Source: Escherichia phage vB_EcoS_Uz-1. Taken from it: a stretch of DNA of 64,000 bases. The notes beneath the pieces were generated by a model. That model was not told the DNA's origin and ran no database searches. It saw nothing but the letters and a program-made list of their open reading frames with translations. The DNA lies in the sequence record OP312987.1, one strand, 5' to 3'. Below are positions 35,264 through 60,727 of the stretch, in pieces (the first letter of the stretch is position 1; each line of letters starts with the position of its first letter). The position numbers and the translations under genes are program-made.

Positions 35264-36240
35264 GATGGAAAATATCTCTCTCTTTGTTTGCAAATGGTCG
35301 CGACAGGGCAGTATAAACAACGCTTAACCTGCCCCTCCACGACCTTGATAGCACCCTTGCCACCTTTTTCAGCCATGAAGATACGGGCAGATGCCATATC
35401 GTCAAAGTTTTTGGTACTTCTGGCTCCAGGCACATCTACCTTAGAAGCATCAGAGAAGTATTTGAATTGTGGCTCTGTTCGCCACAACTCCTCGTCAGTA
35501 CATTCAGGAATTTCCTCTTCAGGAGCATCCCAGTACTTTTCGATGAGGTGAATCTTCTCTTCCACCCAACGTTCAGTCTTCTCGACAGATAGCAGCGGAA
35601 TATCCTTATGCATAATACGATTAGCAGGATAGTTCGGGTTGCTATTAGCCATGTGTTTCATGAAGTCAGTGAAGATGTAGTTAATACGGATTACATCCTC
35701 CGTAATGATGTCGTTATGAATCCAACGGTACAAGCTGCCTTGCATCTTGTGTTCATCATCACGGGAACCGGCAACCCAGGAATAGGTTGAGGTAGACTTA
35801 AAGTCTTGCAACAGACCTTCCGTTACGATGTCGAACTTACCACCGATAGTCCAACCCTTAACTACCCTGGTTCCACGTTGTTCAATGTAGATTGGGATAA
35901 GGTCTGGGTTAGCATCAAAGTCTGCTTTGGTTGGGTTAATGACTACTGCATCAATGACTCGCTGAGGATAGCCTAGTTTCTTCAATGCAGTCTTATGCCC
36001 CAGCTTCCAGGCTTTCTCAATAGAATCATGCAAGCCAGTACCCATTGATGTGGAGACGAAATCCATAACATCAATGGATTGTTCACTGAGATCTACGCGA
36101 TGCTTCATGACGATTTGCTTAATGGGTTTAAGCAATGTAGTAGCAGACAAGTACTTAGGATTGTCTACATAATCATACTCGTCATGTAATAGCCATACAG
36201 CTAGTGCAAGACTAACGTCGTGTTTGTTGGTAAGTTTCAT
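35260..36240 (-). CDS. PD-(D/E)xK nuclease with C-terminal cysteine cluster (Cas4/RecB-like)
   Basis: GKFDIV ... LQDFK motif plus C-terminal CLYCPVATIC and an upstream Cys, compatible with a Cas4-like Fe-S nuclease. Its first 21 codons are duplicated upstream of the adjacent HNH gene. Confidence 0.5.
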   Translation of the reverse strand: MKLTNKHDVSLALAVWLLHDEYDYVDNPKYLSATTLLKPIKQIVMKHRVDLSEQSIDVMDFVSTSMGTGLHDSIEKAWKLGHKTALKKLGYPQRVIDAVVINPTKADFDANPDLIPIYIEQRGTRVVKGWTIGGKFDIVTEGLLQDFKSTSTYSWVAGSRDDEHKMQGSLYRWIHNDIITEDVIRINYIFTDFMKHMANSNPNYPANRIMHKDIPLLSVEKTERWVEEKIHLIEKYWDAPEEEIPECTDEELWRTEPQFKYFSDASKVDVPGARSTKNFDDMASARIFMAEKGGKGAIKVVEGQVKRCLYCPVATICKQRERYFPS

Positions 36241-36734
36241 AACAGTCCCAATTGCTTATTAGTTTTAGCAAACTCACCATAATGAGTTATAGCAGCTTCA
36301 TCATAGAGAACAGCAGCTTCTCTTGGGTCATCTGTAAAACCTAATGTAATTGGTTTACTGTTAACCCAAATAGTTGCTCTGTATTTACCTAAATTCTTTG
36401 AAAAGGATACCCCCTTAAATCCAGATGTGTTTGTTTTAGATAAAACAGCACTCTGGTTATTCTGCTTGTGGGTCGCTTCTCTGAGGTTATCTATCCAGTT
36501 GTGATGGCGAATATTGTCCTTATGGTCAATCCTATCCGTAGGCCATACACCGTGCACATAGAACCATGCAAGGATATGCCCATAGTACAACACACTATCT
36601 ACACGGAGTTGAACGTAACCACTCTTCATTAGGTAACCAGATACCTTTCCGGTATTCCTACGAGTAAAAATCCCGGAAATAGGGTCATAACTAACAAGCT
36701 GTAAAAGCCTGTCATGGGCAATCCTCTGTTTCAT
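36237..36734 (-). CDS. HNH homing endonuclease with AP2 DNA-binding domain (intact)
   Basis: HNH_3-type core (HGVWPTDRIDHKDNIRHHNWIDNL) and AP2-like C-terminus (SGFKGVSFSKNLGKYRATIW ... AAVLYDEAA). 165 aa, free-standing between replication genes. Confidence 0.7.
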   Translation of the reverse strand: MKQRIAHDRLLQLVSYDPISGIFTRRNTGKVSGYLMKSGYVQLRVDSVLYYGHILAWFYVHGVWPTDRIDHKDNIRHHNWIDNLREATHKQNNQSAVLSKTNTSGFKGVSFSKNLGKYRATIWVNSKPITLGFTDDPREAAVLYDEAAITHYGEFAKTNKQLGLL

Positions 36735-42897: not shown

Positions 42898-44946
42898 TTA
42901 CTTAACGTGCTTTGACAGCTTAGTAGCCAATTTGCTCTCTTCTTCAGTCAGACCCATTGCAGCTGAAGACTTCTTAGCTGCACGCTTATAGTCTTGTAGG
43001 GCATGACCTTTCTGATAGTCAGAGATAGGACTATCTTCAGGATGTACGCAGATTATCATGGCATGTTTACCAGTAATGGCAGGCTTATATTTAGTGGGTA
43101 GAACGGTCTTAGCTTGCTTCACTGGTTTTGGTTTGCCGATGGGTTTAGCTGTGTAAGTTGTACGTACATCAGCAATCTTAGCCACTACATCGGAACCAAC
43201 TCCTAAAGCAGCCCATGGCTTACGGGCCTTGCCTCGCATTTCCACAAGCAAATCAGCAGCAGCTAATTTATCTTCTGGGGTTGTTGCATTGAGGAACTCT
43301 TTGACCAGTTCCTGGATTTGTTCTTTCACAGTAGGAGCCTTCTTAATAACGGGTTTAAGGTCAGTAGCCTTCACTGGTTCAGAAGCTACAGTTTCATTCA
43401 GTGACTCTTCCATATTCAGTGCTTCTTTATTAGCAACTGTACGGAATTGTTCTACAGAACCAGATGTGAGATTAGTATATTTGAGGTTAGTACCACGATG
43501 TCCACCAACCATAACAAGTGTGGTAGGTGAACTATGGTTCCCAACGATGGCATCATTAAGCAACTTCTTACCTACTTCTGTCTTAGACAGATAGATACCG
43601 TTGTTAACGTTGCAACGTTCCTCTTCCGGCAGTTCAGCAATAATGTGATATGCAGATACACGCATCTTATTAGTGCTGTACTGAGGAACAGCAAATACAT
43701 CTTCTGGTGCTACTTTACCAAGGATAGTTACGTTACCACCGAAGCTACGAATGTAGCTCATGGATGCTACATGCAGACCATTAGAACAGTCCTGGCGACG
43801 GTCAGGGTCTACCAGGTCTTCGCGTACCTGCACTTTACATCCTACCCATTGACGAATGTTGCCTGAGTGACAATCAACGAATACACGTTTACCATTCTCT
43901 AGACTTCTATACTTCAGACGTTTCAGGAACAGGATTGAACCATCATCAGCAATAGGTAGCTCAGCAGTTTCCATGAACTTCATCAGGTCTTCAACTGAGT
44001 GTAGACGGTCTTTAATTACTGGAGCCAGACGCTCAAGGAACTTAGTAAAGCCCTTGTAGTCTTTCAGTTGGGCAGACTGACGCAAGTGACGTTGCAGGTT
44101 CTCAACTCCAGGGATAACCCCATCGTTGGTAACAGCAACAACCACTTCATCTTCCTTCACATCAGTGTGGAAGTTAGCGTCATCAGTACTAATAGCACCC
44201 AATGCAGCCAGTTTCTCAGAAGCAGCAGCCAGCTTATCCTGATTCGTAACTTTAACCTCTTCTACATAAGGCAGTGGAGTTTCATCGCGACTGGTAAATA
44301 CAATGTGTACTCCTTTGATATGTTTGGCTTGTTTAGCAAACTCACTCATTTCATCATCGGATACTGCACGAATTGCAATAGGCCATTCTTGCTTAAGAAT
44401 GCTGTCAGTATGCTTATAACTCCAACACAGTACATCATTAATAAAACGAACCAGTGCAGGATGGTTATGGTCCTTGTCCCAACCAGTAACCCACATCAGA
44501 TTGTCACGTTTATCGTAACAACCGTCTGCTACTGTTACTTCTGGTTCATTAGCCTGGACAGCCAGGAAGGTATCCATAGCTCTAGACACCAGCGTCTTAG
44601 TGGGATTTCCCAGCTTAATATCTGAGACGATTCGGGCTGGTTGAGTACTTGTACCATCTTCGAAGAACTCTTTGAGTTTAGCCTTAGCTACCTTGAAGAA
44701 ACGGACGAATCCGTTAGTGTTCTTCTCTGCTTCCAGATATTCAGTACGCAGGTTTACTTCTGGTGCAATGTTTACTTCTATCTGGTCTTTGGTAGTTCCC
44801 AGACCTTTGGTTTGTGCTTCAGATACAATACGAGCAACCCGTGGGTCGCTCTGAGGATATACAATCGTGGAGCCATCAGGCTTCCACAGTGTAAGGTTAC
44901 GACTGTCAACTGCCAGTGCGATGATAGAAATCAGTTCGATTTTCAT
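42898..44946 (-). CDS. large hypothetical protein immediately downstream of rIIA-like gene (rIIB-like by position only)
   Basis: 682-aa ORF following the rIIA-like gene on the same strand. No motif recognised; the rIIB label is positional. Confidence 0.3.
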   Translation of the reverse strand: MKIELISIIALAVDSRNLTLWKPDGSTIVYPQSDPRVARIVSEAQTKGLGTTKDQIEVNIAPEVNLRTEYLEAEKNTNGFVRFFKVAKAKLKEFFEDGTSTQPARIVSDIKLGNPTKTLVSRAMDTFLAVQANEPEVTVADGCYDKRDNLMWVTGWDKDHNHPALVRFINDVLCWSYKHTDSILKQEWPIAIRAVSDDEMSEFAKQAKHIKGVHIVFTSRDETPLPYVEEVKVTNQDKLAAASEKLAALGAISTDDANFHTDVKEDEVVVAVTNDGVIPGVENLQRHLRQSAQLKDYKGFTKFLERLAPVIKDRLHSVEDLMKFMETAELPIADDGSILFLKRLKYRSLENGKRVFVDCHSGNIRQWVGCKVQVREDLVDPDRRQDCSNGLHVASMSYIRSFGGNVTILGKVAPEDVFAVPQYSTNKMRVSAYHIIAELPEEERCNVNNGIYLSKTEVGKKLLNDAIVGNHSSPTTLVMVGGHRGTNLKYTNLTSGSVEQFRTVANKEALNMEESLNETVASEPVKATDLKPVIKKAPTVKEQIQELVKEFLNATTPEDKLAAADLLVEMRGKARKPWAALGVGSDVVAKIADVRTTYTAKPIGKPKPVKQAKTVLPTKYKPAITGKHAMIICVHPEDSPISDYQKGHALQDYKRAAKKSSAAMGLTEEESKLATKLSKHVK

Positions 44947-44950
44947 CAGA

Positions 44951-47516
44951 TTAGTTACCTTTCAGTTTATTTAGACGATTACGGTAGAGGGACTTAAACC
45001 CAGGAATATCCTCTGGATTCTTCTTAAGGTGTTTGACCAAACTACCTAAGTCCAGCGTCTGTAGGATGTCATTTTTATTCCAGCTATAACTGAATAATTC
45101 TTTGTAATCATTAAGTATTTTAAAGTACTTATGATTACGCGGATTAGTCATTATTGCATATGGCTCTAAGTCATCCACTGACTTAATACAACCCATTTCA
45201 ACAAGTTTTTCTTTGTTGTCGTGTGGTCGATTCCGTAGAAAGTCATATGCCCATTCATATTCTGGTTTAAAAATCAGATTCTGTAATGGTTTGAAGGTTA
45301 GACCAGTATGTCTAGGATTTCCCAGTATTCCCTGTCATCCAGTCCTACGTATTCCAGAATACCAATACGGTGTTCAGTAACATATTTCTTGAAGCCTTTA
45401 CTGGTAATAACTGGCATCAGCTCCATAAAGCGAACATCATCAATGTGGATAGCACCTCTCCGTTTGGCCTTGTTAGCTTCGATTTGATTACGGCAGACAA
45501 CAGTCTCTGCTCTCATCTCATCAGATAACTCATACCATTTCCACATGGTTCCAATTCGAGCAGTTACTGGGCTACCTGAACCAACCTGATTGGCTAGTAC
45601 GTAGTACTTAGGTTGCTCTACTTCAACGAAACCAGACTTATCATGGCGACTTGGGTCTGCAAATTCCTTCTGAATATAAGGCTTTGGTTCCCAATCCCCA
45701 TTTTTATTCCGTATTTGGGTAGCACCAAGAACTGCATTCAATGAAATCAGAGAATTAGTTTTACCTCCTGCCTTGGTTTTATTGGCAGCGATTGTCTTAG
45801 ACCGTTTCTCAGCAGCTATCTTAGCTTTCTCTCTACGGAAGTTAGTTGGTTTGTCCCACTCATTATATTGAGTAAGGTCGATTACCCGATAACCCATAGC
45901 AGTGAACTTAGCCACAGCTTCTTCTGCTGCACCCTTCTTAGGTCCAACGACGTGAACAAAAGCTGTACGCTCCAGGTCACCTCGATCGTACTCAGGGAAG
46001 TACGAGAAAGAGTCTGCACAGTCAGACAAACGTCGGGTAACTACAACGTTTTTGGTAGTGAATATGCCAATACTTTGGTGGGAGTTATTGTATATCCTAA
46101 AGTAGTCAGTAAGTTTACCTTTTACCAAGTCAACACGGTTACCTTGATTCATTATGTAACCAGACCACTTAATACCAGAGGTTTTCAAAGCAGCCAGCTG
46201 AGGTAAGTGCAGATGGCGATATACTAATTCCGAGAATGGGGAGTATGTACTTTCTTCACGAGTATCCTTAAGAGCACGCATAGCCTTACCATACAGTTTC
46301 TTAAGACCTGCGTATTCAGGACGAGCTAATAATGCCTTATTGGATAAATTACGCCAGTGCTTGATGTAATGCTTACGTTGCTTAGCCCACAAACTAGAGG
46401 ACATATAGCGTTGAACAGTTCTGTCTGTAACAGCACCCAGGAATGATGGATACTCCCAGAAGCGAGTAGAGGATTTAGAAGCATATTCTTCAACCTGCTT
46501 AATGGCTTCAGGAATCTTAGCCTTAATCTCTTTCTCCATACGGTCTACTAAATCTACACATAGAGTAGTAATACCATCGTCGGTTAACTTCTGGTTAGAC
46601 AGCGTTTCTCGACTAGGAGCAATAGCTAAAGTGTCTGGTGCAGCCTGAACTACTAGATTAGAAGCACCAATAATATTCATGAAGTTGAGGATAAGGCCTA
46701 CAGCTTCTTCACTAGCTGGGCTGGATACAATTGGTACATTACATTACCGTAGCGAACGTATATGTTACTGCTACCCATATAGCCTTGATACCATCTATCA
46801 GACATATCATATGAACCAGGTTCAAATGGCATGCCTAGTGTATCCAGTAGAGTGTAGTCGCCTTGTTGAATACTATTACTCTCGTCTGTTCTAATGAGTT
46901 TGGGAGTACTTAGCTCAGCTTTAATTTCACCGTTAAACACAATTGATTTGATGTAATGAATAAAGGTATTTAAATCATGTTTGCCTAACTGGAATTTAAC
47001 TTCCAGACCAGATTCCTCAGTAGGAATACCAGTAATAATAGGAACAATACCAGGCTTACCATCATTCTCAATTGCAGCCTTAGCTACGTTATATACAGAC
47101 ATCTTCCCTTGGTTCCATGATGTAACCTGGAAGCTATCTGTATAAGCGAATGGGGATTTACATCCCAGACCAAAGCCACCAGTAACACTACTGTTGGACT
47201 TCTTGGTAGATGCACCATAGACACCATAAATGGAGCCAATGAGTTCATCTTGGATACCGTTACCGAAGTCACGGAAGGTAATAAAGTTGTCAGTATCAAT
47301 GGTAATACGGATAGGAGTATCAGTCTTACCTGCTTCAATATGGGCATCCCAACTGTTACAGATAGTTTCACGGACTACTGCCAGAGTAGGGTTGTTATAC
47401 AAGGAAGTACTTAATACATGAAAGAATGCCGGGTCATCAGAGATGCCAAAGGCGATTGCTTCTTTGCCACCCAGTGTCGCTGAAGTGGCTGATTGATTGG
47501 TATCTGCAACTAACAT
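44951..47516 (-). CDS. rIIA-like protein with GHKL-type ATPase N-terminal domain; two apparent frameshifts
   Basis: Fragments 46698..47516, 45298..46680 and 44951..45196, about 855 aa combined. GHKL-like motifs ETICNSWDA, RDFGNGI, GGFGLG. Adjacent frames are open and protein-like across both junctions; the second is at an A3 run (TGGGAAATCC, coding strand) near 45315-45324. Confidence 0.55.
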
Positions 47517-47543
47517 TTATTTACTCTCCAGTTTAAATGTTGC

Positions 47544-47735
47544 TTACATTAGAACTTGTTTACACTTATCAAAAATAGCTTTACGAAGTTCAGCTTCTTC
47601 CCGTGGTTCATCATTAGGATGGTGACCTACAGGACTATTTTGAAAAGCATTCATTAGGAATAAGACCTGATACTCGGTTAAACCATTAATCTGAATGCTA
47701 TACGTTTTCTCTGAGGCGATATTTACATTAGCCAT
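47544..47735 (-). CDS. small hypothetical protein
   Basis: Track ORF 47544..47792; start preferred at ATG 47735 (MANVNIASEK), overlapping the upstream gene end by 8 nt. Confidence 0.35.
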   Translation of the reverse strand: MANVNIASEKTYSIQINGLTEYQVLFLMNAFQNSPVGHHPNDEPREEAELRKAIFDKCKQVLM

Positions 47736-48102
47736 TGCGTTTACCTGCCATTGCTTGTAATACAAACACAGCCATATCTGATGCCATGTCATCTGTTATA
47801 TCGTTGACCGTTCCATATGGTAGTGGGCCGTTCTCTTCCCAGTTATCTAACGTGTTTTGTACTTCAGCTAAACCAGCCTGAATCATTTCCTTGCTTGGTT
47901 CCAGCCATAACTTACGTTCCTCTGCTAGTGCAGCGATGCATATGCATAGAGAGGCAATGTTAGCTGGACAAGCAGCAATATCACCAGTTACTGCAATCTC
48001 ACTGAGTGGGACAGCCTTACCGGTTTTACTATGAATTACTTCAGGGTTAATCATGAATTTGCTCCAGGTTATGGGCAGGAATAGGGAAGCATGGATAGTC
48101 AC
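47728..48102 (-). CDS. hypothetical protein
   Basis: 124-aa ORF. Confidence 0.4.
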   Translation of the reverse strand: MTIHASLFLPITWSKFMINPEVIHSKTGKAVPLSEIAVTGDIAACPANIASLCICIAALAEERKLWLEPSKEMIQAGLAEVQNTLDNWEENGPLPYGTVNDITDDMASDMAVFVLQAMAGKRNG

Positions 48103-48259
48103 CGGTAGGGTCCAGTGTTACTGACACATGCAGTGTATTTGTCATTTGGGTTAGCATCTGAGCAGCATTGAAATCATCCTGGATACAGGCATATACAATG
48201 TCGCCCTTCTCACCCTCACACATTACGGGTGTGTCTTTGATACGGTATTTAGCAGGCAT
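48047..48259 (-). CDS. hypothetical protein
   Basis: 70-aa ORF immediately downstream of a terminator hairpin. Confidence 0.35.
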   Translation of the reverse strand: MPAKYRIKDTPVMCEGEKGDIVYACIQDDFNAAQMLTQMTNTLHVSVTLDPTGDYPCFPIPAHNLEQIHD

Positions 48260-48286
48260 ATGCCCTCCTGAAAGAGTTAATTGAAA

Positions 48287-48314
48287 CCAAAAAAGACCTC
48301 CCGGAGGAGGTCTT
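48287..48314 (-). terminator. intrinsic terminator (minus strand)
   Basis: AAGACCTCC-CGGA-GGAGGTCTT followed on the minus strand by TTTTTTGG. Confidence 0.5.
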
Positions 48315-48318
48315 AGGT

Positions 48319-48534
48319 TTACTTACGATTTTGTTCTACAAATCGTATCATTTGTTTTTTCACTTCTTCTTGCTCACGAATTGCTTCGTAGTCACGAGCA
48401 AAGTAGTAAACACACCATAAACCAATCTCGCTTACAAAGAACAGAATACTAGCTCGAATGAACTGCATATCTGTTTCTACGACAAAGGCAACTTTGTATG
48501 CGTAGGTCAGTGTTAGTAGGGTACTAATTAGCAT
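48319..48534 (-). CDS. small membrane protein
   Basis: 71-aa ORF with two hydrophobic helices. Confidence 0.4.
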   Translation of the reverse strand: MLISTLLTLTYAYKVAFVVETDMQFIRASILFFVSEIGLWCVYYFARDYEAIREQEEVKKQMIRFVEQNRK

Positions 48535-48553
48535 TGCGTATAGAGCTAGTTTT

Positions 48554-49498
48554 TCATTCTGTAATTGTTTCTCCGGGGATTAGTTTACGGAATTGGATGA
48601 AATCCAGTAAGTTGCCAGAATACAGCTTACCTTCACGGTCCATAGATGTAACACCCTGTTCCCATGTTAATGGGTTCTGGTTGTTCACATACTTATCACC
48701 AACAGTCATAGGAGTTGCCTGGTGTTCGGTAGGGGATGCATGAATAGGTTGGTTTTCAACTAACTTAGCAAACAATCCTAAGTCCTCTTCAATAGTAGAT
48801 GGACGGCCTTCGAAATTGTTGTAAGAAGCACGAGCACAACGAGCAGCACTTACTTTAAGAAGTAAGCCATACACTTCTTCACGACTTGGCTCATCACGAG
48901 TAATTCGCTGATGTTTGCAGTAATTATAAGCCCCGACACGATCAATATGAGCAATATACGGTAAATGCCATTCCCCTTGTGGGAGTGCTCTCGTAGTGCT
49001 TTCATTGTGTGCCTTACGCATTGCTTGAGCCAGTTCACGAATCTCTGGTTGAGCGTCCTCATGGTCACGCAATCCATAGAAGTTAGTCCAGCTAGTTGAA
49101 GTTACCACTACACGGATATGTGTGAATGGTTCCAGAATACGGTTAACAATCTGCTTATGTACTTGACCACGACGAAGCATTTCTGCATAGGTAGCAGCAC
49201 TGGACGCAGCCTGATTCCAGATAAAGATTGCATCTACGTTGGTCTTCGGACTGAGTTCCTCAAATGCCTGCATACCCTTCTGGTTCTTACCCCAGTGACT
49301 TGGCATCACTGGTTCATTACGAACCTGTTCGATGAACTTAGAAGTAGGGATAGCACGACTACTTGAAGCATTTCGGTTGAATACACGGTGAGTCATAAAC
49401 TCACTGTGGATGAATCGGGGGTAAACCAATTCAAAGGTAGTAATACGAGTTCCTGTTTCTGGGTGAACGGAATCTGCAATGACAGTTGCCTTAATCAT
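48554..49498 (-). CDS. thyX: flavin-dependent thymidylate synthase (ThyX)
   Basis: ThyX signature RHRxxxxxS present (EFMTHRVFNRNASSSRAIP); 314 aa. Confidence 0.7.
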   Translation of the reverse strand: MIKATVIADSVHPETGTRITTFELVYPRFIHSEFMTHRVFNRNASSSRAIPTSKFIEQVRNEPVMPSHWGKNQKGMQAFEELSPKTNVDAIFIWNQAASSAATYAEMLRRGQVHKQIVNRILEPFTHIRVVVTSTSWTNFYGLRDHEDAQPEIRELAQAMRKAHNESTTRALPQGEWHLPYIAHIDRVGAYNYCKHQRITRDEPSREEVYGLLLKVSAARCARASYNNFEGRPSTIEEDLGLFAKLVENQPIHASPTEHQATPMTVGDKYVNNQNPLTWEQGVTSMDREGKLYSGNLLDFIQFRKLIPGETITE

Positions 49499-50972: not shown

Positions 50973-51479
50973 TTAATTAAGCCGTCTAGCAGCTACTGGT
51001 TTATCTTCCTGGTTCTGATACTTGCCATTGTAATTAGCAGGTTCTTGAACCAGATGAAATAATACTTGAGCTATCCCAGCACCAGCCGGGATATGCAATT
51101 TCTTACGACCATGATAGACCAGTTCGAGGGTAAGATACCCTTTCCATCCTGGTTCTATTACGGTATTGAACACTGATAATGCACGTCTTGCCCACGTAGA
51201 CTTATCGTGAACGATGGCTACACAGGACGGGGACATATTAAACTTCTCAATTGCTGAGGCCAAGGCGAACTTACCGAGATGGCGTGATACTTGATTTCCA
51301 TCAACGACTTTCACCATTGGAATCAACCCAAATAAGCGATAGAAGGTAATATCCTGTTTGATACGAATATCATAACCAGCTTCACCTAATCCGTAGCTTA
51401 CACCATGCTTAGATACCTTACGGTCTGGGACATCCAGCAGCTGAGATGAACGGTATAGAGAATTACCATTAACAACCAT
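50973..51479 (-). CDS. dCTP deaminase/dUTPase-family protein
   Basis: SYGLGEAGYDIRI and GWKGYLTLEL motifs resemble the dCTP deaminase/dUTPase fold. Confidence 0.55.
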   Translation of the reverse strand: MVVNGNSLYRSSQLLDVPDRKVSKHGVSYGLGEAGYDIRIKQDITFYRLFGLIPMVKVVDGNQVSRHLGKFALASAIEKFNMSPSCVAIVHDKSTWARRALSVFNTVIEPGWKGYLTLELVYHGRKKLHIPAGAGIAQVLFHLVQEPANYNGKYQNQEDKPVAARRLN

Positions 51480-52651
51480 TATTTCATTCCTTTAGGGATA
51501 TGAACTACCTCCCCAAAAGGTACGGTAGCATTGGGATTATTCAGAACACACCAGATGATAGGAATATCAAATGGCAATTCTTCCATTGGACGAACATACA
51601 TATCGGAGAATATGATTGCAGCGGTTGGCTTATTCTTAATAATCCAATCACGTACTGGTTCCAGGTTTGTACCACCACGACCTGTAATCTTAATCTCTTC
51701 AAATGTATCTTCTTCAGTGATGTCTATCTCTTCTTGGATAATATCGTCGAAGGTAATTAGGGACATCTTCTTAGGATTGAACTGGCTTTTAACGTAGGCA
51801 ACCTCTGAGTTAAATCGCAGAGAGTCTGCACTACTAATAGAACCAGATACATCTTCAAAGTAGGCCAGGTGTCGTAAACGTCCTTCATCATCTTCCATAG
51901 AAGGTAGATAGATATCAGTAAAACGACGGTTAGGTCTGGCCCATGTATAACGTGATTCATCAATGTCGGTAAAAAGTTCATCAGAACTTCTTGCCATGGA
52001 ACCACTGGTTTAAGAAATTGGGTAATAACCTCTTCCATACGACCAGCACCCTTACCTGGCATCTGTCCACCAGCCATTTTCTGGCTTTGCATTGCACGTA
52101 CTACGTTGTTGACAACAGCACCCTGGGACTGCCCGGAGTGGGGATTTCATGTCGCCAGCAAGACCTGCTCCAGCACCCCCTGACGGCTTCTGCCTTTTCT
52201 GAGGGTTCTTCATCAAGTCATCGTAGATATCTTCTTCGACCCATCCTTTATATTGAGGGTCTTTGCAAATACCTTTGTCGATACCAGTGAATTTGTAACC
52301 ATCTTCTTCTAACTGAAGGTTAATGAAGTGGTCACATGCCTGGTTCCAGACTTCTGGGTCACGGCTTCCACGACGGATGTCATGTAGATATGCCACATGC
52401 CAGAGTTCGTGCATTAACACTGTTTCTCTTGCGTCTGGACACATCCAGATAAAGAAATCTGGATTGAAATGGAGTTCTATCCCATCGGTACATGCAGTGG
52501 GACAATCCTCGCGTTTCCACGAGAACTTAAGACTACATAGTAATGAACCAAAGAACGCAGCGCTTCGACCTAGGAAAGCCTGAGCTTGAATACGATCATA
52601 TTCACGCATGAGTTGTTCATCTGTGAGACTATGCGTAGGTATACTGTTCAT
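51479..52651 (-). CDS. metallopeptidase-like (HExxH) plus VWA domain protein; two apparent frameshifts
   Basis: Fragments 52052..52651 (HELWH motif), 51757..52092 and 51479..51997 (VWA MIDAS-like DVSGS). First break at a C4 run on the coding strand (plus strand GGGG at 52140..52143). Confidence 0.5.
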
Positions 52652-53129
52652 TAGGGTGCTCCATGATTGGGGTGATAGCCATACAGTTTTTCAGCCGCTT
52701 TTCTGGCGTCTATGGCATCTTGCTTGTCTGCAAAAGTGCCCAAACTTACCAGACGTGTTCCATCAGATATAGCTGCATACCAGATGGAATCACGCTTGTG
52801 CCAGTACACACCAGTAACACCACTGGAATTAGTTACCCGTTTCTTTTGGTTTCTGGTGTTAGTTCTGCTGTCTACTAATCTAAAGTTACTTAGAAGGTTA
52901 TTAACCCTATTGTGGTCTAGGTGATCAATCTGCATACCTTTCGGGATAGGTCCATTGTGCATTTCCCATATGACACGGTGCACTTTGTAACTTTTGCCCT
53001 TATAGTTGAAGCATAAATAACCATCGCTATTTAGATTACCTACCTTTTTCCAGCAATGCCTCTGGAGGCTACTGTAACTTTCCAGAATAGCTCCCCATTT
53101 ATGTAAACGAGTATGTCATTCCAGTTCAT
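52651..53129 (-). CDS. HNH homing endonuclease with AP2 domain; disrupted by a 1-nt deletion in an A-run
   Basis: True start ATG 53129 gives MNWNDILVYINGELFWKVTVASRGIAGKR then stop; the downstream frame continues VGNLNSDGYLCFNYKGKSYKVHRVIWEMHNGPIPKGMQIDHLDHNR (HNH_3) and an AP2-like C-terminus. The frames join at GGAAAAAGG (plus strand T5 at 53045..53049). Confidence 0.6.
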
Positions 53130-53136
53130 GTTGTGA

Positions 53137-54188
53137 TTATCCGTGAATGTAGCGGGAGATGTTAGCAGCAGCCTTACGCCATTCAGGGGTAGCCTGAAGT
53201 TCTGGCAATGCTCTGCCTACTGTACGAAAGTACAGAATCTTATGAGTGAACGTTTTAAAGCGTTCAATGTACTGAAGAACATCAGCGAAGTTTTCCTCAG
53301 TAGTTTTGTTAGCCAGATGGTTAACGGTAGCCCAACACAGGTTATTATCTTCCGGTAGTGTACAGCCCATAGGGTCTTTGACTACCTTATCAATCGTAAT
53401 GATACGATTGTACACCTGTGTAAATTGAACAAACTCTGTAGCCTTACCAGCAGTAACGTGTCCTGCATAGTAGATAGAATCTTCATCAGGCAGAGCACCT
53501 TCAGGACGGTTCTTGAGGTCTTTGTTAACAAAGTCCCAGGTACGAGGGCAACAGAACGTTTTGTTCTTATGTGCTGGGTCGAAGTCATGCAGATAACCGG
53601 GGTTAGCATGTAAGAATGCAACCAGACGTTCATCCATTGTTGTGGAATCATTACGTCTTCAACAAAGATGTCGAAGTTAAGTTCCATTTCGAAGTGGACA
53701 ACACGGGACTGCATTGCAGTACCCAGTGGGTTAACGATGGCACGGTCAGTAGCTTTGTTACCAGCACAGATAATCATCACATTAGGATGAAGTTTTTTCT
53801 GACCAGTCATACGGTCTAGAATCAGTTTATATGCAGCAGCTATTACTTCTTTGCGAGCAGATGGGAACTCATCAAGGAATAAGAGCCAGCCATTATATCC
53901 TTCCGGTATTTTATCCCCTTCAATTGGGAATAAGTCAGCGAATGGAATAAACTCTGCACGGTCACCATTACGGAATGGTAAGCCAGAAAGGTCTTCCGGG
54001 GCAGAAGTTGACAGACGATGGTCTATCAACTTCATACCAAATTCTTCTGCAATAGAACGAATGATTGCAGATTTACCCATGCCAGGTGATGAAGTCAGGA
54101 ACGGTACGTTACCTGCTTTCAAAGCACGGATAATAAAGTTACGAGCTTGACGTGAATTACATACGGTCAAGGAGTCAATGCTTGCCAT
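53137..54188 (-). CDS. MoxR-like AAA+ ATPase; N- and C-terminal parts in different frames
   Basis: Walker A SSPGMGKS, Walker B LLFLDEF, sensor-1-like ICAGN in 54188..~53650; a protein-like C-terminal ORF 53137..53637 in another frame, while the N-terminal frame continues as low-complexity garbage. Could instead be two genes. Confidence 0.5.
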
Positions 54189-54222
54189 TTACTTACTCTC
54201 CTAAAGCTAATGGAATTACTGA

Positions 54223-54552
54223 TTAAGATTTAGTGCAGGGATAGGCCTTGTGTACTGAGTACACAACAATTTGAGATGTATTCTTCATCTTGAGGATTGC
54301 AGAGTCATAAATAACCACTTTGGCAATCTTAGGCAGAATGACCGAATATTTAATACCTTCTGGAACACAGTTATCTGTGCTCTCGATGTAAGAGATCATA
54401 CTGCCCATGAAGAAACCTTGTCCGAACGCATCACGAGTGTCATCCAGGTAAGCCTGAGCACCTTCCAGAATTGGTTCTGGTTCAATTGCTTGTGCACTTG
54501 GGGCTAAAGCTATCAGTGCAGCTACTGCAATACCTTTAAGTAAAGTTTTCAT
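54223..54552 (-). CDS. small secreted protein with Sec-type signal peptide
   Basis: N-terminus MKTLLKGIAVAALIALAPSAQA with an AxA cleavage-like site; 109 aa. Confidence 0.5.
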   Translation of the reverse strand: MKTLLKGIAVAALIALAPSAQAIEPEPILEGAQAYLDDTRDAFGQGFFMGSMISYIESTDNCVPEGIKYSVILPKIAKVVIYDSAILKMKNTSQIVVYSVHKAYPCTKS

Positions 54553-54738
54553 TTAGTTACCTTTCATTTCATTGAGTTTAAGTACACCGATAGGGGTTAA
54601 TGACCACCCAAGACCAGCATTGAACTGAACTAAGCCCAGCTTCTTAAGAGACTGTGCGGTTTTGTTATTACGGTTGCTGGTGGCAGAACCACCTTGAACC
54701 ATACGAAGGAAGATTGCTTGGGACTGAGTTAATTTCAA
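54553..54738 (-). CDS. hypothetical protein
   Basis: 61-aa ORF, start overlapping the upstream stop. Confidence 0.35.
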   Translation of the reverse strand: MKLTQSQAIFLRMVQGGSATSNRNNKTAQSLKKLGLVQFNAGLGWSLTPIGVLKLNEMKGN

Positions 54739-54944
54739 AGGTAATATCCTTCCAGGTTTATTGGTGTTACAAATGTATTTGCTGATAGATAGAATGATTT
54801 ACCAGTTTCTACAGCAACAGCAGCAGGTTTGCCTTCAGGTAGGTGAATCTTTAAACACACTGTCTGGTTATAAATAAAACCATTAGCAGGCTCTACATCA
54901 CCGAAAGTTACTTCATTGTTCTCAGAACGATTTGTTACTTTCAC
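54735..54944 (-). CDS. hypothetical protein
   Basis: 69-aa ORF, ATGA-coupled. Confidence 0.35.
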   Translation of the reverse strand: MKVTNRSENNEVTFGDVEPANGFIYNQTVCLKIHLPEGKPAAVAVETGKSFYLSANTFVTPINLEGYYL

Positions 54945-55201
54945 TCATCTTCTCCTTCATCCGGTAGCGGTGATAAATCTACACCTAAATGCTTCAGGCG
55001 TTTCTCTAAGTCATCTACCTTATTTTGATAAAATGACAGTAGCTCAGGTAGTATTCTTGTACGAGCTTGCGGTCCTAAATCCTTATCGTAAAAGGATACT
55101 TTCACCATATGTGGAGCTTTCTTCAAACTAGCTAATTGCTGTCGGTTGTCGTTGTATTCTTCATACAATTTCTCAACCAAATGTAGATTGTGGATATTCA
55201 T
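54941..55201 (-). CDS. hypothetical protein
   Basis: 86-aa ORF, ATGA-coupled. Confidence 0.4.
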   Translation of the reverse strand: MNIHNLHLVEKLYEEYNDNRQQLASLKKAPHMVKVSFYDKDLGPQARTRILPELLSFYQNKVDDLEKRLKHLGVDLSPLPDEGEDE

Positions 55202-55386
55202 TTCTTCTCCGGTACGAACTGCATTACACAGCTTTGATTACGAGGGATATTAAGTTCACATTCATGCTTGAGGGTTTGTGTTACAGAGTTTGGAGTAGAA
55301 CCAAAATAGGTATTGGAGATAGCTACGAATCCTGCACCTATTAAACCACCTAGTAAGAATGAGAAGAATGCAATCTCTTTATACAT
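55198..55386 (-). CDS. small membrane protein
   Basis: 62-aa ORF with an N-terminal TM helix. Confidence 0.4.
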   Translation of the reverse strand: MYKEIAFFSFLLGGLIGAGFVAISNTYFGSTPNSVTQTLKHECELNIPRNQSCVMQFVPEKK

Positions 55387-55446
55387 TTCCTGGCTCCAGA
55401 TGTAGAAAACCCAGTCAATGCTGGGGTTTATCTATCAGTTTATACT

Positions 55447-55707
55447 TTATAGACCATGTGGTCGGCATAGACTACCCGAACCAAACGAACGGTGTCCAAG
55501 TCGGCCCAGGATTAGATTGCTTACTTCAGCAGCAGCACGACTGAATGCTTTAAAGTCAAAAACTACGATACCAAAGAGTGGGGCTGCAATAGCAGCTACC
55601 ATGATTGGAGTCAGGTCAACCAGTGACATACCCAAGATTAAGTGAGCAGCGTAGGCAATAATACCCATTCCAACACCACAACCATATCCAATAGCAATTT
55701 TACGCAT
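55447..55707 (-). CDS. small membrane protein
   Basis: 86-aa ORF with two G/A-rich hydrophobic helices. Confidence 0.4.
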   Translation of the reverse strand: MRKIAIGYGCGVGMGIIAYAAHLILGMSLVDLTPIMVAAIAAPLFGIVVFDFKAFSRAAAEVSNLILGRLGHRSFGSGSLCRPHGL

Positions 55708-55844
55708 AGTTACCTTCTTAGTTAGTAAGTTGATTTACATATTCATATAACAGACAAACAATAGTCAAAAAAGACTCCCTTCAATAGGGAGGTCAAACTT
55801 GAGGGTTTCATTTCAGGGTTTATAACCCCAAACAAAGAATACCC

Positions 55845-56753: not shown

Positions 56754-56934
56754 AGTTGTTTACACAGTAGATAGCGAAAGCTATCCATCCTGCCATTACA
56801 AAGCATCCTAGTGAATATGCCCCATAGTAGCAGTAAGCAAACTTAGACTTGTGGGCACGGACTATCGTAGCCAGAACCAGTACAGATAAAACTATCAGTA
56901 TTAACTGAGAGATTACTTCAAAAGGGATTAGCAT
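56752..56934 (-). CDS. small membrane protein
   Basis: Track ORF 56752..56967; internal start at 56934 (MLIPFEV) preferred because the first 11 codons overlap a terminator hairpin. Confidence 0.35.
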   Translation of the reverse strand: MLIPFEVISQLILIVLSVLVLATIVRAHKSKFAYCYYGAYSLGCFVMAGWIAFAIYCVNN

Positions 56935-56951
56935 AGTTGTTACCTCCAAGC

Positions 56952-56984
56952 AAAAAATATGCCTCACTCCCGAAGGAATGAGGC
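56952..56984 (-). terminator. intrinsic terminator (minus strand) after RNAP II large subunit gene
   Basis: GCCTCA-CTCCCGAAGGAA-TGAGGC followed on the minus strand by ATATTTTTTG. Confidence 0.45.
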
Positions 56985-56991
56985 TAGTTTA

Positions 56992-58209
56992 TTAACTCAA
57001 CGCATAGTCTGTTTCAAGAATGTCCTGCCAGAGGCTGTCATCCAGCTTACCAGCAGAGAACTCTTGCCCCAGTACCTGAGACAGGATGAAGCCCAGTAGG
57101 TCACTCTTAGCAATATCAGACAGGATCTGATTGTACTGACGACGCAGGTCATTACCGTAGTTAGGATGGCAACGGAAGCAGTCATGTACAGTCATTACAG
57201 GGAATGGTTTCTTAGGCAGAGTGTCAATCATATCTGCTACTACCTGACGGTCTACATAAGCAATAGTACATGGGTCAAGATAGTCCAGGATGGATAAAGA
57301 TAAGAAGCCAGACTTCTCATAATGGCTCCATAGCTCTTGTACCTTCTCCAGATTACCTGCAATCTCCCCATATTCTGATGGACCTTCATCACAGAGTTCT
57401 CGCACAGCTTCCACTAAGTCACGTTCGAAGTTACAACGACGTAGCATCTCACGCACTACCATCCCATCAATAGAGTGAGTGATGTTAGCAGAGAGCATAC
57501 GGGTCTTCTCTTCAGTACCCTGAACCATACGGGTGATATCAAATGGTTTACCTAAGAAGTTAACAGTCTGTACTTCTGGAACCATGACCTTAATCACAGC
57601 ATGGAAGTTGTCAGGCAATACCCATACGTAACGATTAGCATCCGGGTTACCACATTGCAGTAAGAACTTGTTCAATGCCCAAGGACCACTCGCAACCGTT
57701 TCCATTACATTCTCAAAAGTCTTGAGACGAATACCTTCACCGAATACTTCTTTAGGCTTAGCTTCTGAACCGTAGAACGCAGTCATAACTGCCTGCTTAG
57801 TGTCACTACGTTTAATACGTGAAGCTTCACCAAGGATGTCCAGCATCTTGTGATAGATAACTGTATAAGCATCACGACGTAATGGCTTACCATTCTCTCC
57901 CATGTAGTTAACTACGTTACACAGTTCAGCAGCAGAGCGGTCACCAGTCAGACAGGCCAGTAACTGTAAGCCAGATGATGTAGCATCCAGAGCTACAGCA
58001 TAACCAATAGGCTTACCAGCTTTCATATCCTTCCATGCGTTTACACCAGCATAAAACAGTGCAGATTCTTCAGCTTCATCTACCAGATTAAGTAGGTTAG
58101 CTTCATTCTCATCGAACCAGCTAATACGTTCATCCCATGTCTTCTTATCTAAGCCATAGTTGTTAGCGATATCTATTTTCAGGTATTGTTTAGCGGTTAA
58201 CAGTTGCAT
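56992..58209 (-). CDS. phage RNA polymerase II catalytic (large) subunit, T7-like single-subunit RNAP C-terminal half
   Basis: T7-RNAP-like motifs LDATSSGLQ (A), TAFYGS (B) and HDCF (C). Start re-derived at ATG 58209 with AAGGAA RBS; the track ORF starts at a GTG 30 nt upstream. Confidence 0.75.
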   Translation of the reverse strand: MQLLTAKQYLKIDIANNYGLDKKTWDERISWFDENEANLLNLVDEAEESALFYAGVNAWKDMKAGKPIGYAVALDATSSGLQLLACLTGDRSAAELCNVVNYMGENGKPLRRDAYTVIYHKMLDILGEASRIKRSDTKQAVMTAFYGSEAKPKEVFGEGIRLKTFENVMETVASGPWALNKFLLQCGNPDANRYVWVLPDNFHAVIKVMVPEVQTVNFLGKPFDITRMVQGTEEKTRMLSANITHSIDGMVVREMLRRCNFERDLVEAVRELCDEGPSEYGEIAGNLEKVQELWSHYEKSGFLSLSILDYLDPCTIAYVDRQVVADMIDTLPKKPFPVMTVHDCFRCHPNYGNDLRRQYNQILSDIAKSDLLGFILSQVLGQEFSAGKLDDSLWQDILETDYALS

Positions 58210-58415
58210 TTTATGTTCCTTTTGCTTCTTGCTCCCCACTATGGAGAGCCTGCTTATTGGATGGTTAGGCAGTTACTACGTCGGCAGATAGTTTATAAAT
58301 AATGGTTTTACTCTCAGGGTTTTGAAGCTTGTAAAGCTTCTCAAAGTATAAGCACTTCACATATGTACCTGAGTAGACACACTCTTCATTAACCCATAAT
58401 TCATAGGAGCCAATG

Positions 58416-59234
58416 TTAGTCTTCATTTACTAACTCTTTATCTGCGAACTCTATGACTGCTTTGTTATAAGAGGTTCCCGCATAGTTAATGTGGTATCCA
58501 CAGGCATAGGTTCGCCCACTCTTGTCATACTTATGCGCTAGTGAGAAGTTATTACCTTCTTTGGTCACTAATTCCATTACTTCCTTAGCAGTACGGCTGT
58601 ACTTTTCAAAGGCTTTAACACGTTTCTCATATTCCTGACGGGTTTCACCCTCTTTGGGCTTATCCATATTAGGACGAGAGTCTTTTACATAGTTAGCAAC
58701 GTCCCAGTTAATGCTTAGGCGTTGATTATTCATACGGTTGATATGGTCAAGACAGACATCCATCTCGTGATGGTTCTTCTTGAGGATGATGCTTCCCCTG
58801 CTCTCGTAGTAACCTGTATCACGGTTACACAGAACAGGCTTAGGAGCACTTACAATAGGTAATGGATACTGGAATGCTTCCAGTTCCATCTGAACATCTT
58901 CACTAATCTCATAGATAACACCGAACTTGTCGATGGTAGGGTCATAGTTGAAGCAGTCATTCTCTGCCATCTTATACAGACAGTCAGCAATGTACTGAGC
59001 ATCATCTGAGTGACTCATTAGGGAGCCAATCATAGTCTGAATGTCAGCACGTTTATGTAGGGCAATCTGCACCATTGCATCAATGAGCAGCTTATAATCA
59101 ATTTCCAAATAGGCAGCAAATGCCTTAAAGTCAATTTCTTCGGAGTCCTCAAATTCCTTCCTCATGCGAGGCAGTAATTGATTTTTATTGAATAGGACTT
59201 CAAGCTGCTTCTGATGTTCAATAGATGAGTACAT
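58416..59234 (-). CDS. phage RNA polymerase II small subunit, T7-like RNAP N-terminal half
   Basis: 272-aa ORF immediately upstream of the catalytic subunit on the same strand, AGGAG RBS. Assignment by synteny with two-subunit N4-like RNAP II. Confidence 0.55.
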   Translation of the reverse strand: MYSSIEHQKQLEVLFNKNQLLPRMRKEFEDSEEIDFKAFAAYLEIDYKLLIDAMVQIALHKRADIQTMIGSLMSHSDDAQYIADCLYKMAENDCFNYDPTIDKFGVIYEISEDVQMELEAFQYPLPIVSAPKPVLCNRDTGYYESRGSIILKKNHHEMDVCLDHINRMNNQRLSINWDVANYVKDSRPNMDKPKEGETRQEYEKRVKAFEKYSRTAKEVMELVTKEGNNFSLAHKYDKSGRTYACGYHINYAGTSYNKAVIEFADKELVNED

Positions 59235-60004: not shown

Positions 60005-60109
60005 TCAGAGCATACTCATGTCATGCTGTTCTTTCTTGGTTCGACAGTGACCACACTTGCTATCCCATTGGGATGCATAGCCTTTCCCACAATTACATTG
60101 TTTGTTCAT
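60005..60109 (-). CDS. 34-aa zinc-ribbon-like micro-ORF (below the 60-aa track cutoff)
   Basis: MNKQCNCGKGYASQWDSKCGHCRTKKEQHDMSML with a four-Cys CxC...CxxC pattern; its ATG overlaps the upstream stop as ATGA. Confidence 0.3.
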   Translation of the reverse strand: MNKQCNCGKGYASQWDSKCGHCRTKKEQHDMSML

Positions 60110-60354
60110 TTAAAAGTACTCCATGGTATGGACTCCAAGTAATTAATTTTGTAAATAATCTTACTTCTTATTTCTCCACCAACATCTTGTACATGGATTA
60201 GGTTTAACCTTTGTGCTTGGGTTATAGTAGCTGCAAGAGTTCTCCCCATAATATTTGATATTTCTATAAAAGATTTATTGGATTCTACTAGTATCTTTAA
60301 ATTAGTATTATCTAAGTTACTCCACTCTTTAGAATGATTTGCTGGCTTATCCAT
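60106..60354 (-). CDS. hypothetical early protein
   Basis: 82-aa ORF. Confidence 0.4.
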   Translation of the reverse strand: MDKPANHSKEWSNLDNTNLKILVESNKSFIEISNIMGRTLAATITQAQRLNLIHVQDVGGEIRSKIIYKINYLESIPWSTFK

Positions 60355-60727
60355 TTGGATTCTCCACGAAATAGTTATACATAGCCTTCACTAGCTTCTC
60401 TTTAATAACCTCACCATGACATGGTTTCGGATAACAGAAGCACTGTAAGGCCAGTCCTTTCTCGTCAATGGCTTTATTACCCAGACGATTGAGTTCATCC
60501 AGTACAACTGGATTCTTTATCATTATCTGTTCTTGCAGCCAGACTTTATACTTAGCAATTACTTGCTCCCTGGTTCCATGTTTACCAATGACGAATGGAT
60601 TTCCAAGAGGTGAACCACGTCCAATATACTCACCGGATTTACCGTGATGTTTGTTAACAATACTAATTGGACGTGCAGATACACCCAGCAGAGCATTGGT
60701 GTTATCACCTAATGAGATAGTTTTCAT
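60347..60727 (-). CDS. DUF4326-like protein
   Basis: YIGRGSPLGNPF motif followed by a conserved W, recalled as characteristic of the DUF4326 phage family. Confidence 0.45.
   Translation of the reverse strand: MKTISLGDNTNALLGVSARPISIVNKHHGKSGEYIGRGSPLGNPFVIGKHGTREQVIAKYKVWLQEQIMIKNPVVLDELNRLGNKAIDEKGLALQCFCYPKPCHGEVIKEKLVKAMYNYFVENPNG

What the first reader, a model, noticed from the sequence alone, without database searches (positions are those of the whole stretch)
52651..53129. Second HNH-AP2 homing endonuclease between the AAA ATPase and VWA genes, broken at a homopolymer
A free-standing HNH-AP2 gene sits exactly between two functionally paired genes (MoxR-like ATPase and VWA/metallopeptidase protein), a typical homing endonuclease niche. 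Its reading frame is broken after 29 codons at GGAAAAAGG (coding strand); one extra A would restore a full 159-aa endonuclease. It is either a decaying endonuclease gene or a sequencing indel.
Basis: seen in the sequence. Interest (0 to 1): 0.5.

Follow-up and report, generated by a model that had tools for sequence, protein, structure and literature searches.

The report
Intact phage endonuclease gene, artefactual frameshift
The "broken" HNH homing-endonuclease gene is a known, normally intact phage gene, and its frameshift is one of dozens of one-base homopolymer errors carried over from the public phage Bp4 record, so the finding is ordinary.

Summary
On the minus strand, a 29-codon ORF (53129-53040) ends at GGAAAAAGG-TAG. 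The rest of an HNH_3 + AP2-like endonuclease continues in the -1 frame to 52651, and one extra A gives a 159-aa protein. That repaired protein is 100% identical to the intact ORF AXY81310.1 of phage PD38, which has A6.

The break is not biological. The window aligns without a single gap to phage Bp4 (NC_024142.2, positions 8584-72583) despite 5.95% substitutions. Bp4 differs from PD38 by 3 substitutions and 39 indels. All 39 are deletions in Bp4, and 38 lie in homopolymers. The window carries all 32 that fall within it. They break eight genes, including the DNA polymerase and primase. Adding PD38's bases restores every one.

So the window appears to be a consensus built in Bp4 coordinates. Its probable source is vB_EcoS_Uz1, which has the same 72,583-bp length and went through a reference-guided pipeline. 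The HNH block (52617-53139) is identical to the Bp4 record, error included, and may be reference fill-in.

The gene itself is a known free-standing homing-type endonuclease. It sits between the N4 gp24 ATPase and gp25 VWA homologues, which are 7 nt apart in relatives that lack it. Interest is low.

The parts
52651..53129 (-). Free-standing HNH_3 + AP2-like endonuclease gene (Bp4 orf67, PD38 AXY81310.1). It is 159 aa when the A-run is A6.
   Evidence: 100% identity to the intact PD38 ORF; I-HmuI 1U3E, E 7e-7; phrog_99, E 4.5e-56.
53040..53129 (-). 5' fragment of the gene as it reads in the window: 29 codons plus TAG.
   Evidence: It has no Pfam match of its own.
53045..53049 (-). A5 run (T5 on the + strand) where one base is missing. 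PD38 has A6 at this position.
52852..52980 (-). HNH_3 nuclease domain, with the catalytic DH...N...N motif aligned to I-HmuI.
   Evidence: (60.6 bits on the 110-aa ORF).
52678..52824 (-). AP2-like DNA-binding domain.
   Evidence: Pfam AP2 scores 23.3 bits, below the 33.3 cut-off. A six-member family profile hits the AP2 domain of WRI1 (7WQ5) at E 5.8e-8 and TEM1 at 6e-4. The low-confidence model shows three strands followed by a helix.
52617..53139 (.). 523-bp block with zero differences from the Bp4 record. It spans the HNH gene plus 10 bp upstream and 34 bp downstream. Diverged sequence flanks it, with 20 mismatches in the next 106 bp.
   Evidence: The chance of a 479-bp mismatch-free run at the background 7.6% divergence is about 4e-17 per start position.
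53137..54188 (-). AAA ATPase (N4 gp24 homologue). It is split into 268 + 166 aa by a GGG to GG contraction near 53633-53636 and is 350 aa when repaired.
51479..52651 (-). DUF2201_N metallopeptidase plus VWA-like protein (N4 gp25 homologue). It is split into three pieces by contractions near 52139, 52131 and 51970 and is 391 aa when repaired.
36237..36734 (-). The 'first' HNH_3 + AP2-like gene (Bp4 orf42). It is intact at 165 aa and is a 28%-identical paralogue. It also lies in a block with zero differences from Bp4 (36191-37027).

Best explanation
The locus holds a known free-standing HNH (I-HmuI-like HNH_3) endonuclease gene with a C-terminal AP2-like DNA-binding domain. It is a homing-type selfish gene lodged in the 7-nt gap between the N4 gp24 (AAA ATPase) and gp25 (metallopeptidase/VWA) homologues of Gamaleyavirus phages. 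The frameshift at the A-run is not a property of any phage. It is a homopolymer under-call (A6 read as A5) in the public Bp4 record. The window inherited it because the window is a consensus laid out base for base in Bp4 coordinates: substitutions were taken from the sample, insertions relative to the reference were dropped, and unaligned stretches were filled with reference sequence. Shown here: the identity of the restored ORF to PD38, the one-directional homopolymer pattern of Bp4 versus PD38, the gap-free collinearity of the window with Bp4, and the repair of all eight broken genes. Inferred: the pipeline history, and that the window is vB_EcoS_Uz1.
For: (1) The window matches Bp4 positions 8584-72583 with 3811 substitutions and no indel in 64,000 bases, and it ends exactly at the Bp4 record end. 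The substitutions look natural: 2632 of 3533 coding changes are at third codon positions, and ts:tv is 2568:1243. (2) Bp4 versus PD38 shows 3 substitutions against 39 indel events. All 39 are deletions in Bp4, and 38 lie in runs of 2-8 identical bases. (3) The window carries all 32 of these deletions that fall inside it. By my comparison of the sites with the blocks, 21 of the 32 lie in regions where the window has its own substitutions. At 38525 the run itself is changed to CCTCC but the base is still missing. (4) Adding PD38's bases restores single ORFs for the gp53-like protein (884 aa), gp51-like protein (654), primase (736), DNA polymerase (859), rIIA (855), gp25 (391) and gp24 (350), and for the HNH (159 aa). 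A plaque-purified lytic phage cannot lack both polymerase and primase. (5) The restored HNH is 100% identical to PD38 AXY81310.1, a 480-nt intact ORF. (6) Homologues in the same slot in G7C, Mimir124 and UE-S5b are uninterrupted ORFs with no A-run at that position. (7) PMC9670874 describes vB_EcoS_Uz1 (OP312987) as 72,583 bp, exactly the Bp4 length. Its closest relatives are given as Bp4, PD38 and ECBP1, and it was processed with Genome Detective. That tool joins contigs against a RefSeq reference to make a consensus.
Against: I could not retrieve the source record or its reads. The link to vB_EcoS_Uz1 and the pipeline history are therefore inferences. The collections hold nothing closer than 95.2%, and an exact-protein look-up found nothing. 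The authors say the contig came from SPAdes de novo assembly, which would not normally reproduce a reference's indels. No reads for Bp4 itself were examined, so that Bp4's A5 is an error rests on the comparison with PD38 and on the broken essential genes.
Confidence: 0.9

Rival explanations
1. A sub-case of the best explanation: the sampled phage does not carry this HNH gene at all. Its gp24 and gp25 genes would be adjacent, as in IME11 or St11Ph5, and the whole 523-bp block 52617-53139 would be Bp4 reference sequence pasted into an alignment gap.
For: The block has zero differences from the Bp4 record, including the artefactual A5, while both flanks diverge immediately. Its borders coincide with the borders of the presence/absence polymorphism seen against IME11. 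The first 177 nt of gp25 outside the block are closer to HNH-less phages (89.8-92.7%) than to HNH-bearing ones (81.9-87.6%). Twelve other zero-difference blocks totalling 13.3 kb exist in the window, and several contain Bp4-specific deletions.
Against: A recently homed endonuclease gene with short co-conversion tracts would also be near-identical between phages with diverged flanks. The difference in flank similarity is modest and the segment is short. It cannot be settled without reads.
Confidence: 0.45
2. It is a genuine pseudogene: the endonuclease gene in the sampled phage really has A5 and is decaying after fixation, as the homing cycle predicts.
For: Decay of fixed homing endonuclease genes is expected from established knowledge. 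An orthologue in Shigella phage Moonfish (89-97% aa identity) carries a 31-nt deletion that breaks the AP2 part, so decay does occur at this locus.
Against: The same record shows the same type of lesion in seven other genes, including the DNA polymerase and primase. PD38 has A6. The window is not an independent observation of Bp4's indels. There are no other degenerative changes: the restored protein has 0 aa differences from PD38.
Confidence: 0.04
3. It is programmed recoding: the full-length endonuclease is made by -1 ribosomal slippage of tRNA-Lys on A_AAA before the rare AGG codon and the stop, or by transcriptional slippage on the A-run, which would keep nuclease dosage low.
For: A -1 shift at GGA AAA AGG TAG gives the same protein as A6. 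tRNA-Lys can re-pair on A AAA. AGG is a rare codon in E. coli, and a GAGG motif lies about 11 nt upstream (read; the mechanism rests on general knowledge of dnaX-type frameshifting).
Against: There is no canonical X XXY YYZ heptamer. A5 is too short for efficient transcriptional slippage. The 71 nt from the last A of the run downstream fold no better than shuffles (z = -0.28). No homologue conserves a shift: PD38 is in frame with A6, and G7C, Mimir124, UE-S5b and Moonfish are in frame with no A-run. The same explanation would then be needed for 31 other homopolymer deletions in the window.
Confidence: 0.01

Closest known systems
Escherichia phage PD38 AXY81310.1 / Bp4 orf67 (YP_009032030.1, 'HNH endonuclease')
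   Same: It is the same gene at the same locus. The restored window protein is 100% identical to PD38's 159-aa product. The window DNA is identical to the Bp4 record over 52617-53139.
   Different: PD38 has A6 and an intact ORF. Bp4 and the window have A5, and Bp4's annotation keeps only the 103-aa 3' piece.
G7C gp24.1 (YP_004782150.1, annotated as similar to EndZ of phage TLS) and its copies in Mimir124 and UE-S5a/b
   Same: These are free-standing HNH_3 + AP2-like endonucleases of 158 aa in exactly the same gp24/gp25 slot.
   Different: They are only 57-58% identical in protein, so they form a second allele or lineage of the endonuclease in the same niche. All are intact.
I-HmuI (PDB 1U3E), the HNH homing endonuclease of Bacillus phage SPO1
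   Same: It shares the HNH_3 nuclease core, with the DH..N..NN..N motif aligned (E 7e-7 for the single sequence, 4e-9 for the profile).
   Different: I-HmuI is intron-encoded and uses different C-terminal DNA-binding modules. This protein is free-standing and carries an AP2-like domain. No activity data exist for it.
AP2/ERF DNA-binding domains (WRI1 7WQ5, TEM1 7ET4, AtERF1 1GCC)
   Same: The C-terminal ~50 residues of the family profile match AP2 domains (E 5.8e-8 to 0.1). The HNH-AP2 combination in phages and cyanobacteria is the described bacterial relative of plant AP2 (from my own knowledge of the literature).
   Different: The single-sequence Pfam score is below the gathering threshold. 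DNA binding was not tested.

Membership tests
HNH_3 / I-HmuI-like HNH endonucleases (PF13392, phrog_99) | HNH_3 domain above Pfam's curated cut-off | tested here: met
   63.5 bits against a 24.8 cut-off on the restored protein, and 60.6 bits on the 110-aa ORF. phrog_99 at E 4.5e-56.
HNH_3 / I-HmuI-like HNH endonucleases (PF13392, phrog_99) | Catalytic beta-beta-alpha-metal motif residues (DH ... N ... N) present | tested here: met
   IDHLDHNRVNNLLSNFRLVDSRTNTRNQ aligns to VDHKDGNKDNNLSTNLRWVTQKINVENQ of I-HmuI 1U3E. D20, H21, N29, N33 and N42 are invariant in six family members.
HNH_3 / I-HmuI-like HNH endonucleases (PF13392, phrog_99) | Uninterrupted reading frame | tested here: not met
   The frame is broken at A5 in the window and in Bp4. 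It is intact in PD38 (A6) and in the G7C-type alleles. I judge the break to be an artefact.
Free-standing homing endonuclease genes | Presence/absence polymorphism at a precise site between conserved genes | tested here: met
   IME11, St11Ph5 and 24-32N have gp24 and gp25 separated by 7 nt; nithesis and ECBP1 likewise lack an HNH gene in this slot. Bp4, PD38, Moonfish, G7C, Mimir124 and UE-S5b carry a ~480-bp HNH gene there.
Free-standing homing endonuclease genes | Site-specific cleavage of the HEG-less allele and gene conversion (homing) | not testable with these tools
The elevated divergence of the gp25 5' end next to the insertion (20 of 106 nt) is compatible with target-site or co-conversion effects but proves nothing.
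AP2 DNA-binding domain (PF00847) | AP2 domain at Pfam's gathering score | tested here: inconclusive
   23.3 bits against a 33.3 cut-off, E 7.8e-5. The G7C allele scores 30.0 bits. The family profile hits solved AP2 domains at E 5.8e-8. The single-sequence AF2 model has the three-strand plus helix topology but a mean pLDDT of 47.9.
Programmed -1 ribosomal frameshift sites | Slippery X XXY YYZ heptamer, a downstream stimulatory structure, and conservation of the shift in homologues | tested here: not met
   The site reads A AAA AGG. The downstream fold has z = -0.28. All homologues are in frame.
Genuine pseudogene | Lesion confirmed by an independent sequence of the same lineage, with essential genes in the same record intact | tested here: not met
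   PD38 has A6. The window is collinear with the Bp4 record and shares 32 such lesions, including ones in the DNA polymerase and primase.

The most novel reading that the evidence does not exclude
The A5 run is real in the sampled phage, and the endonuclease is expressed at a low level by -1 slippage of tRNA-Lys on A_AAA before the rare AGG codon and stop. This would be a recoding switch that throttles a potentially toxic homing nuclease.
Probability: 0.01. Interest if true: 0.45.

Novelty: already known. Interest (0 to 1): 0.06.

Why it matters
The main value is as a data-quality result. Every split gene in this window is the same artefact and should not be scored as a pseudogene, an intron or a recoding site. 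That covers the gp53-like, gp51-like, primase, DNA polymerase, rIIA, gp25 and gp24 genes as well as this HNH. The result also shows that a deposited 'complete genome' can be a reference-coordinate consensus. Such a record inherits the indel errors, and possibly whole accessory genes, of another record. The biology left over is ordinary for phage genomics: two HNH lineages compete for one intergenic slot in Gamaleyavirus, and one orthologue (Moonfish) appears truly decayed.

Tried and rejected
(1) Programmed frameshift or transcriptional slippage. Rejected: no canonical heptamer, no downstream structure, and no conservation in homologues.

(2) Genuine pseudogene. Rejected on the Bp4/PD38 indel pattern and the broken essential genes.

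(3) The window as an independent natural relative of Bp4 that shares real indels. Rejected: 6% substitutions with zero indels in 64 kb, intergenic DNA included (278 mismatches in 6295 intergenic bases), is not a natural pattern. PD38 is 3 substitutions from Bp4 yet lacks all 39 deletions.

(4) Tracing the source record through an exact-protein look-up with the window's ThyX. Nothing was on record. The phage collection holds nothing closer than 95.2%.

(5) Single-sequence AlphaFold2 model of the 110-aa ORF to test the AP2 fold. Mean pLDDT was 47.9, too poor for a fold search. I used a profile search against PDB sequences instead.

(6) The large protein-database searches were not run. The phage tblastn and the PDB, Pfam and PHROG scans already answered the question.

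Full report
**1. What is in the sequence**

Read on the minus strand, ATG at 53129 opens a 29-codon ORF (MNWNDILVYINGELFWKVTVASRGIAGKR). It stops at TAG 53042-53040, directly after GGAAAAAGG (A5 at 53049-53045). The -1 frame is open from the A-run down to 52651. It contains a 110-aa ORF with Pfam HNH_3 (60.6 bits, cut-off 24.8) and a sub-threshold AP2 match (23.3 bits, cut-off 33.3). Adding one A gives a 159-aa protein with both domains. The gene starts 8 nt after the stop of the AAA ATPase gene, and its stop codon overlaps the start of the DUF2201_N/VWA-like gene (TAATG). The ATPase is split 268 + 166 aa, and the metallopeptidase/VWA protein is in three pieces of 199, 111 and 172 aa.

**2. 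What the window is**

The region belongs to a Gamaleyavirus, a G7C-like member of the N4-like Schitoviridae. The best matches are Escherichia phages Bp4 and PD38 at about 95%. Bp4's annotation shows the same ORF fragments as the window, whereas PD38 has an intact 480-nt HNH ORF and an intact 1053-nt ATPase.

Over 2.9 kb the window has 138 substitutions but no indel against Bp4. Against PD38 it has essentially the same substitutions plus five one-base homopolymer gaps, one of which is the A-run (window A5, PD38 A6).

Extended to the whole window, positions 1-64000 align ungapped to Bp4 positions 8584-72583, and the window ends exactly at the end of the Bp4 record. There are 3811 substitutions (5.95%) and zero indels. 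The substitutions look natural:
- 2632 of 3533 coding changes are at third codon positions.
- Transitions outnumber transversions 2568 to 1243.

They are absent from 13 blocks of at least 250 bp, which total 13.8 kb.

**3. Why the frameshift is an artefact**

Bp4 and PD38 are 99.94% identical over the whole genome. They differ by 3 substitutions and 39 indel events. All 39 are deletions in Bp4, and 38 fall in runs of two to eight identical bases. Evolution does not produce a 13:1 excess of indels over substitutions, all in one direction and all in homopolymers. That pattern is the signature of homopolymer under-calling in the Bp4 record.

The window carries all 32 of these deletions that lie within it. 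By my comparison of the sites with the blocks, 21 of them lie in stretches where the window has its own substitutions nearby. At 38525 the run itself is altered (CCTCC) and the base is still missing.

In the window these deletions break the gp53-like, gp51-like, primase, DNA polymerase, rIIA, gp25, gp24 and HNH genes. Inserting the bases that PD38 has restores single ORFs of 884, 654, 736, 859, 855, 391 and 350 aa for the first seven. For the HNH it gives the 159-aa protein. A plaque-purified lytic phage cannot lack its polymerase and primase. The restored HNH protein is 100% identical to PD38 AXY81310.1.

**4. Why the window shares another record's errors**

A phage 6% diverged from Bp4 cannot naturally share Bp4's sequencing errors, and it cannot naturally lack any indel of its own, intergenic DNA included (278 mismatches in 6295 intergenic bases). 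The window must have been built in Bp4 coordinates. Substitutions were accepted, insertions relative to the reference were dropped, and unaligned stretches were filled with reference sequence.

A literature search gave a probable source. Phage vB_EcoS_Uz1 (OP312987, reads SRR21162442) is reported as 72,583 bp, exactly the Bp4 length. Bp4, PD38 and ECBP1 are listed as its closest relatives, and it was processed with Genome Detective. That tool joins contigs against a RefSeq reference with a coding-aware aligner to produce a consensus. This attribution is an inference. The record is not in the collections I could search.

**5. Is the HNH gene even present in the sampled phage?**

The block with zero differences from Bp4 around the gene is 52617-53139. 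It covers the HNH gene plus 10 bp upstream and 34 bp downstream, and includes the artefactual A5. The next 106 bp of gp25 just outside it carry 20 mismatches to Bp4. The block borders coincide with the borders of the insertion seen against HNH-less IME11. The adjoining 177 nt of gp25 are closer to HNH-less phages (89.8-92.7%) than to HNH-bearing ones (81.9-87.6%).

This fits reference fill-in over a real deletion. A recently homed gene with short co-conversion tracts would look similar, so I put this sub-case at about 45%. Either way, the A5 says nothing about the real phage.

**6. What the gene is and how it most likely works**

The N-terminal two-thirds is an I-HmuI-like HNH_3 nuclease. It matches 1U3E at E 7e-7, with the DH..N..NN..N motif aligned, and phrog_99 at E 4.5e-56. 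The C-terminal ~50 residues are AP2-like. A profile of six family members hits the AP2 domain of WRI1 (7WQ5) at E 5.8e-8, and also TEM1, ERF096 and AtERF1.

The family occurs in 2110 phage records. Within Gamaleyavirus the locus varies in three ways:
- **No HNH gene.** IME11, St11Ph5, nithesis, 24-32N and ECBP1 have no HNH gene between gp24 and gp25; the spacer is 7 nt (TCACACT in IME11) in IME11, St11Ph5 and 24-32N.
- **This allele.** Bp4, PD38 and Moonfish carry it.
- **A second allele.** G7C (gp24.1), Mimir124 and UE-S5b carry a 57-58% identical gene in the same slot.

The inferred mechanism is standard for free-standing homing endonucleases and was not tested here. The AP2-like domain would recognise the HNH-less gp24/gp25 junction region, the HNH domain would nick or cut it during co-infection, and repair from the HNH-bearing genome would copy the gene across.

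**7. Rivals**

A genuine pseudogene (about 4%) and programmed -1 or transcriptional slippage (about 1%) are not supported. The site has no canonical heptamer. The 71 nt from the last A of the run downstream fold no better than shuffles (z = -0.28). Every homologue is in frame.

**8. Verdict**

The gene is already known and annotated, and the break is not a real feature. Interest is low (0.06). The practical lesson is that all split genes in this window share one technical cause.

Noticed in passing
window 1-64000 (indel sites 12296, 14972, 15066, 15169, 15423, 16302, 27670, 29162, 29750, 29757, 29955, 30068, 35022, 38148, 38525, 40076, 45302, 46732, 48288, 48549, 50498, 51970, 52131, 52139, 53044, 53633, 55409, 55766, 55774, 56725, 58230, 60019): The whole window is gap-free against Bp4 NC_024142.2 positions 8584-72583 despite 5.95% substitutions. 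It carries 32 Bp4-specific homopolymer deletions, which split the gp53-like, gp51-like, primase, DNA polymerase, rIIA, gp25 and gp24 genes. Any 'broken gene' finding in this window has the same technical cause.
   Followed up: yes
window blocks 1-2960, 27115-27735, 28882-29667, 36191-37027, 44684-47096, 47533-48559, 52617-53139, 53920-55796, 56872-57423, 58177-58436, 60096-60355, 61027-61938, 62021-62799: Thirteen blocks totalling 13.8 kb have zero differences from the Bp4 record, inside a genome that is otherwise 7.6% diverged. Several contain Bp4's artefactual deletions, so they look like reference fill-in. Accessory genes inside them, including both HNH genes, may not exist in the sampled phage.
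   Followed up: partly
L003 (Shigella phage Moonfish PQ613263.1) 2761-3203, minus strand: The Moonfish orthologue of this HNH (89-97% aa identity) has a 31-nt deletion after residue 117. The deletion shifts the frame inside the AP2-like domain. This is a candidate for genuine decay of the endonuclease gene at this locus.
   Followed up: partly
L010 (Shigella phage pSb-1 NC_023589.1) 1561-3481: In pSb-1 the gp24 ATPase gene is annotated in two pieces (675 and 207 nt). A different HNH gene (585 nt, psb1_0063) and a small opposite-strand ORF lie between them. A second endonuclease may be inserted inside the ATPase gene, either free-standing or intron-like.
   Followed up: no
window 52511-52616 and L009/L015/L016 (G7C, Mimir124, UE-S5b): Two HNH lineages only 57-58% identical occupy the same gp24/gp25 slot in different Gamaleyaviruses. 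The first ~100 nt of gp25 next to the insertion are unusually divergent (20 of 106 nt against Bp4). HNH-bearing and HNH-less phages tend to carry different alleles there, which may mark a target site or co-conversion tract.
   Followed up: partly
window 52052-52651 (Bp4 orf66; also St11Ph5 gp25, nithesis CDS0060, Mimir124 XLZ23665.1, Moonfish gp47): Public annotations name the gp25 homologue 'HNH endonuclease'. Pfam shows DUF2201_N (putative metallopeptidase, E 1.2e-35) and the DUF2201 VWA-like domain instead. This looks like a propagated misannotation.
   Followed up: partly
window 28423-28501, 29202-29280, 29572-29643 (minus strand): ARAGORN calls tRNA-Ile(aat) and tRNA-Cys(aca), both 79 nt with unusual A34 anticodons, plus a tRNA-Ala(cgc) that Bp4's annotation lacks. 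Bp4-type deletions lie close by (29162, 29750, 29757), so these predictions may be distorted by the same errors.
   Followed up: no
window 53130-53139 and 52646-52655: The HNH gene reuses the gp25 start context (TAATCACAAC-ATGAAC, against TAATCACACT-ATGAAC in HNH-less IME11). It ends with TAATG overlapping the gp25 start. The insertion is therefore exact and keeps the translational coupling of gp24, HNH and gp25.
   Followed up: partly
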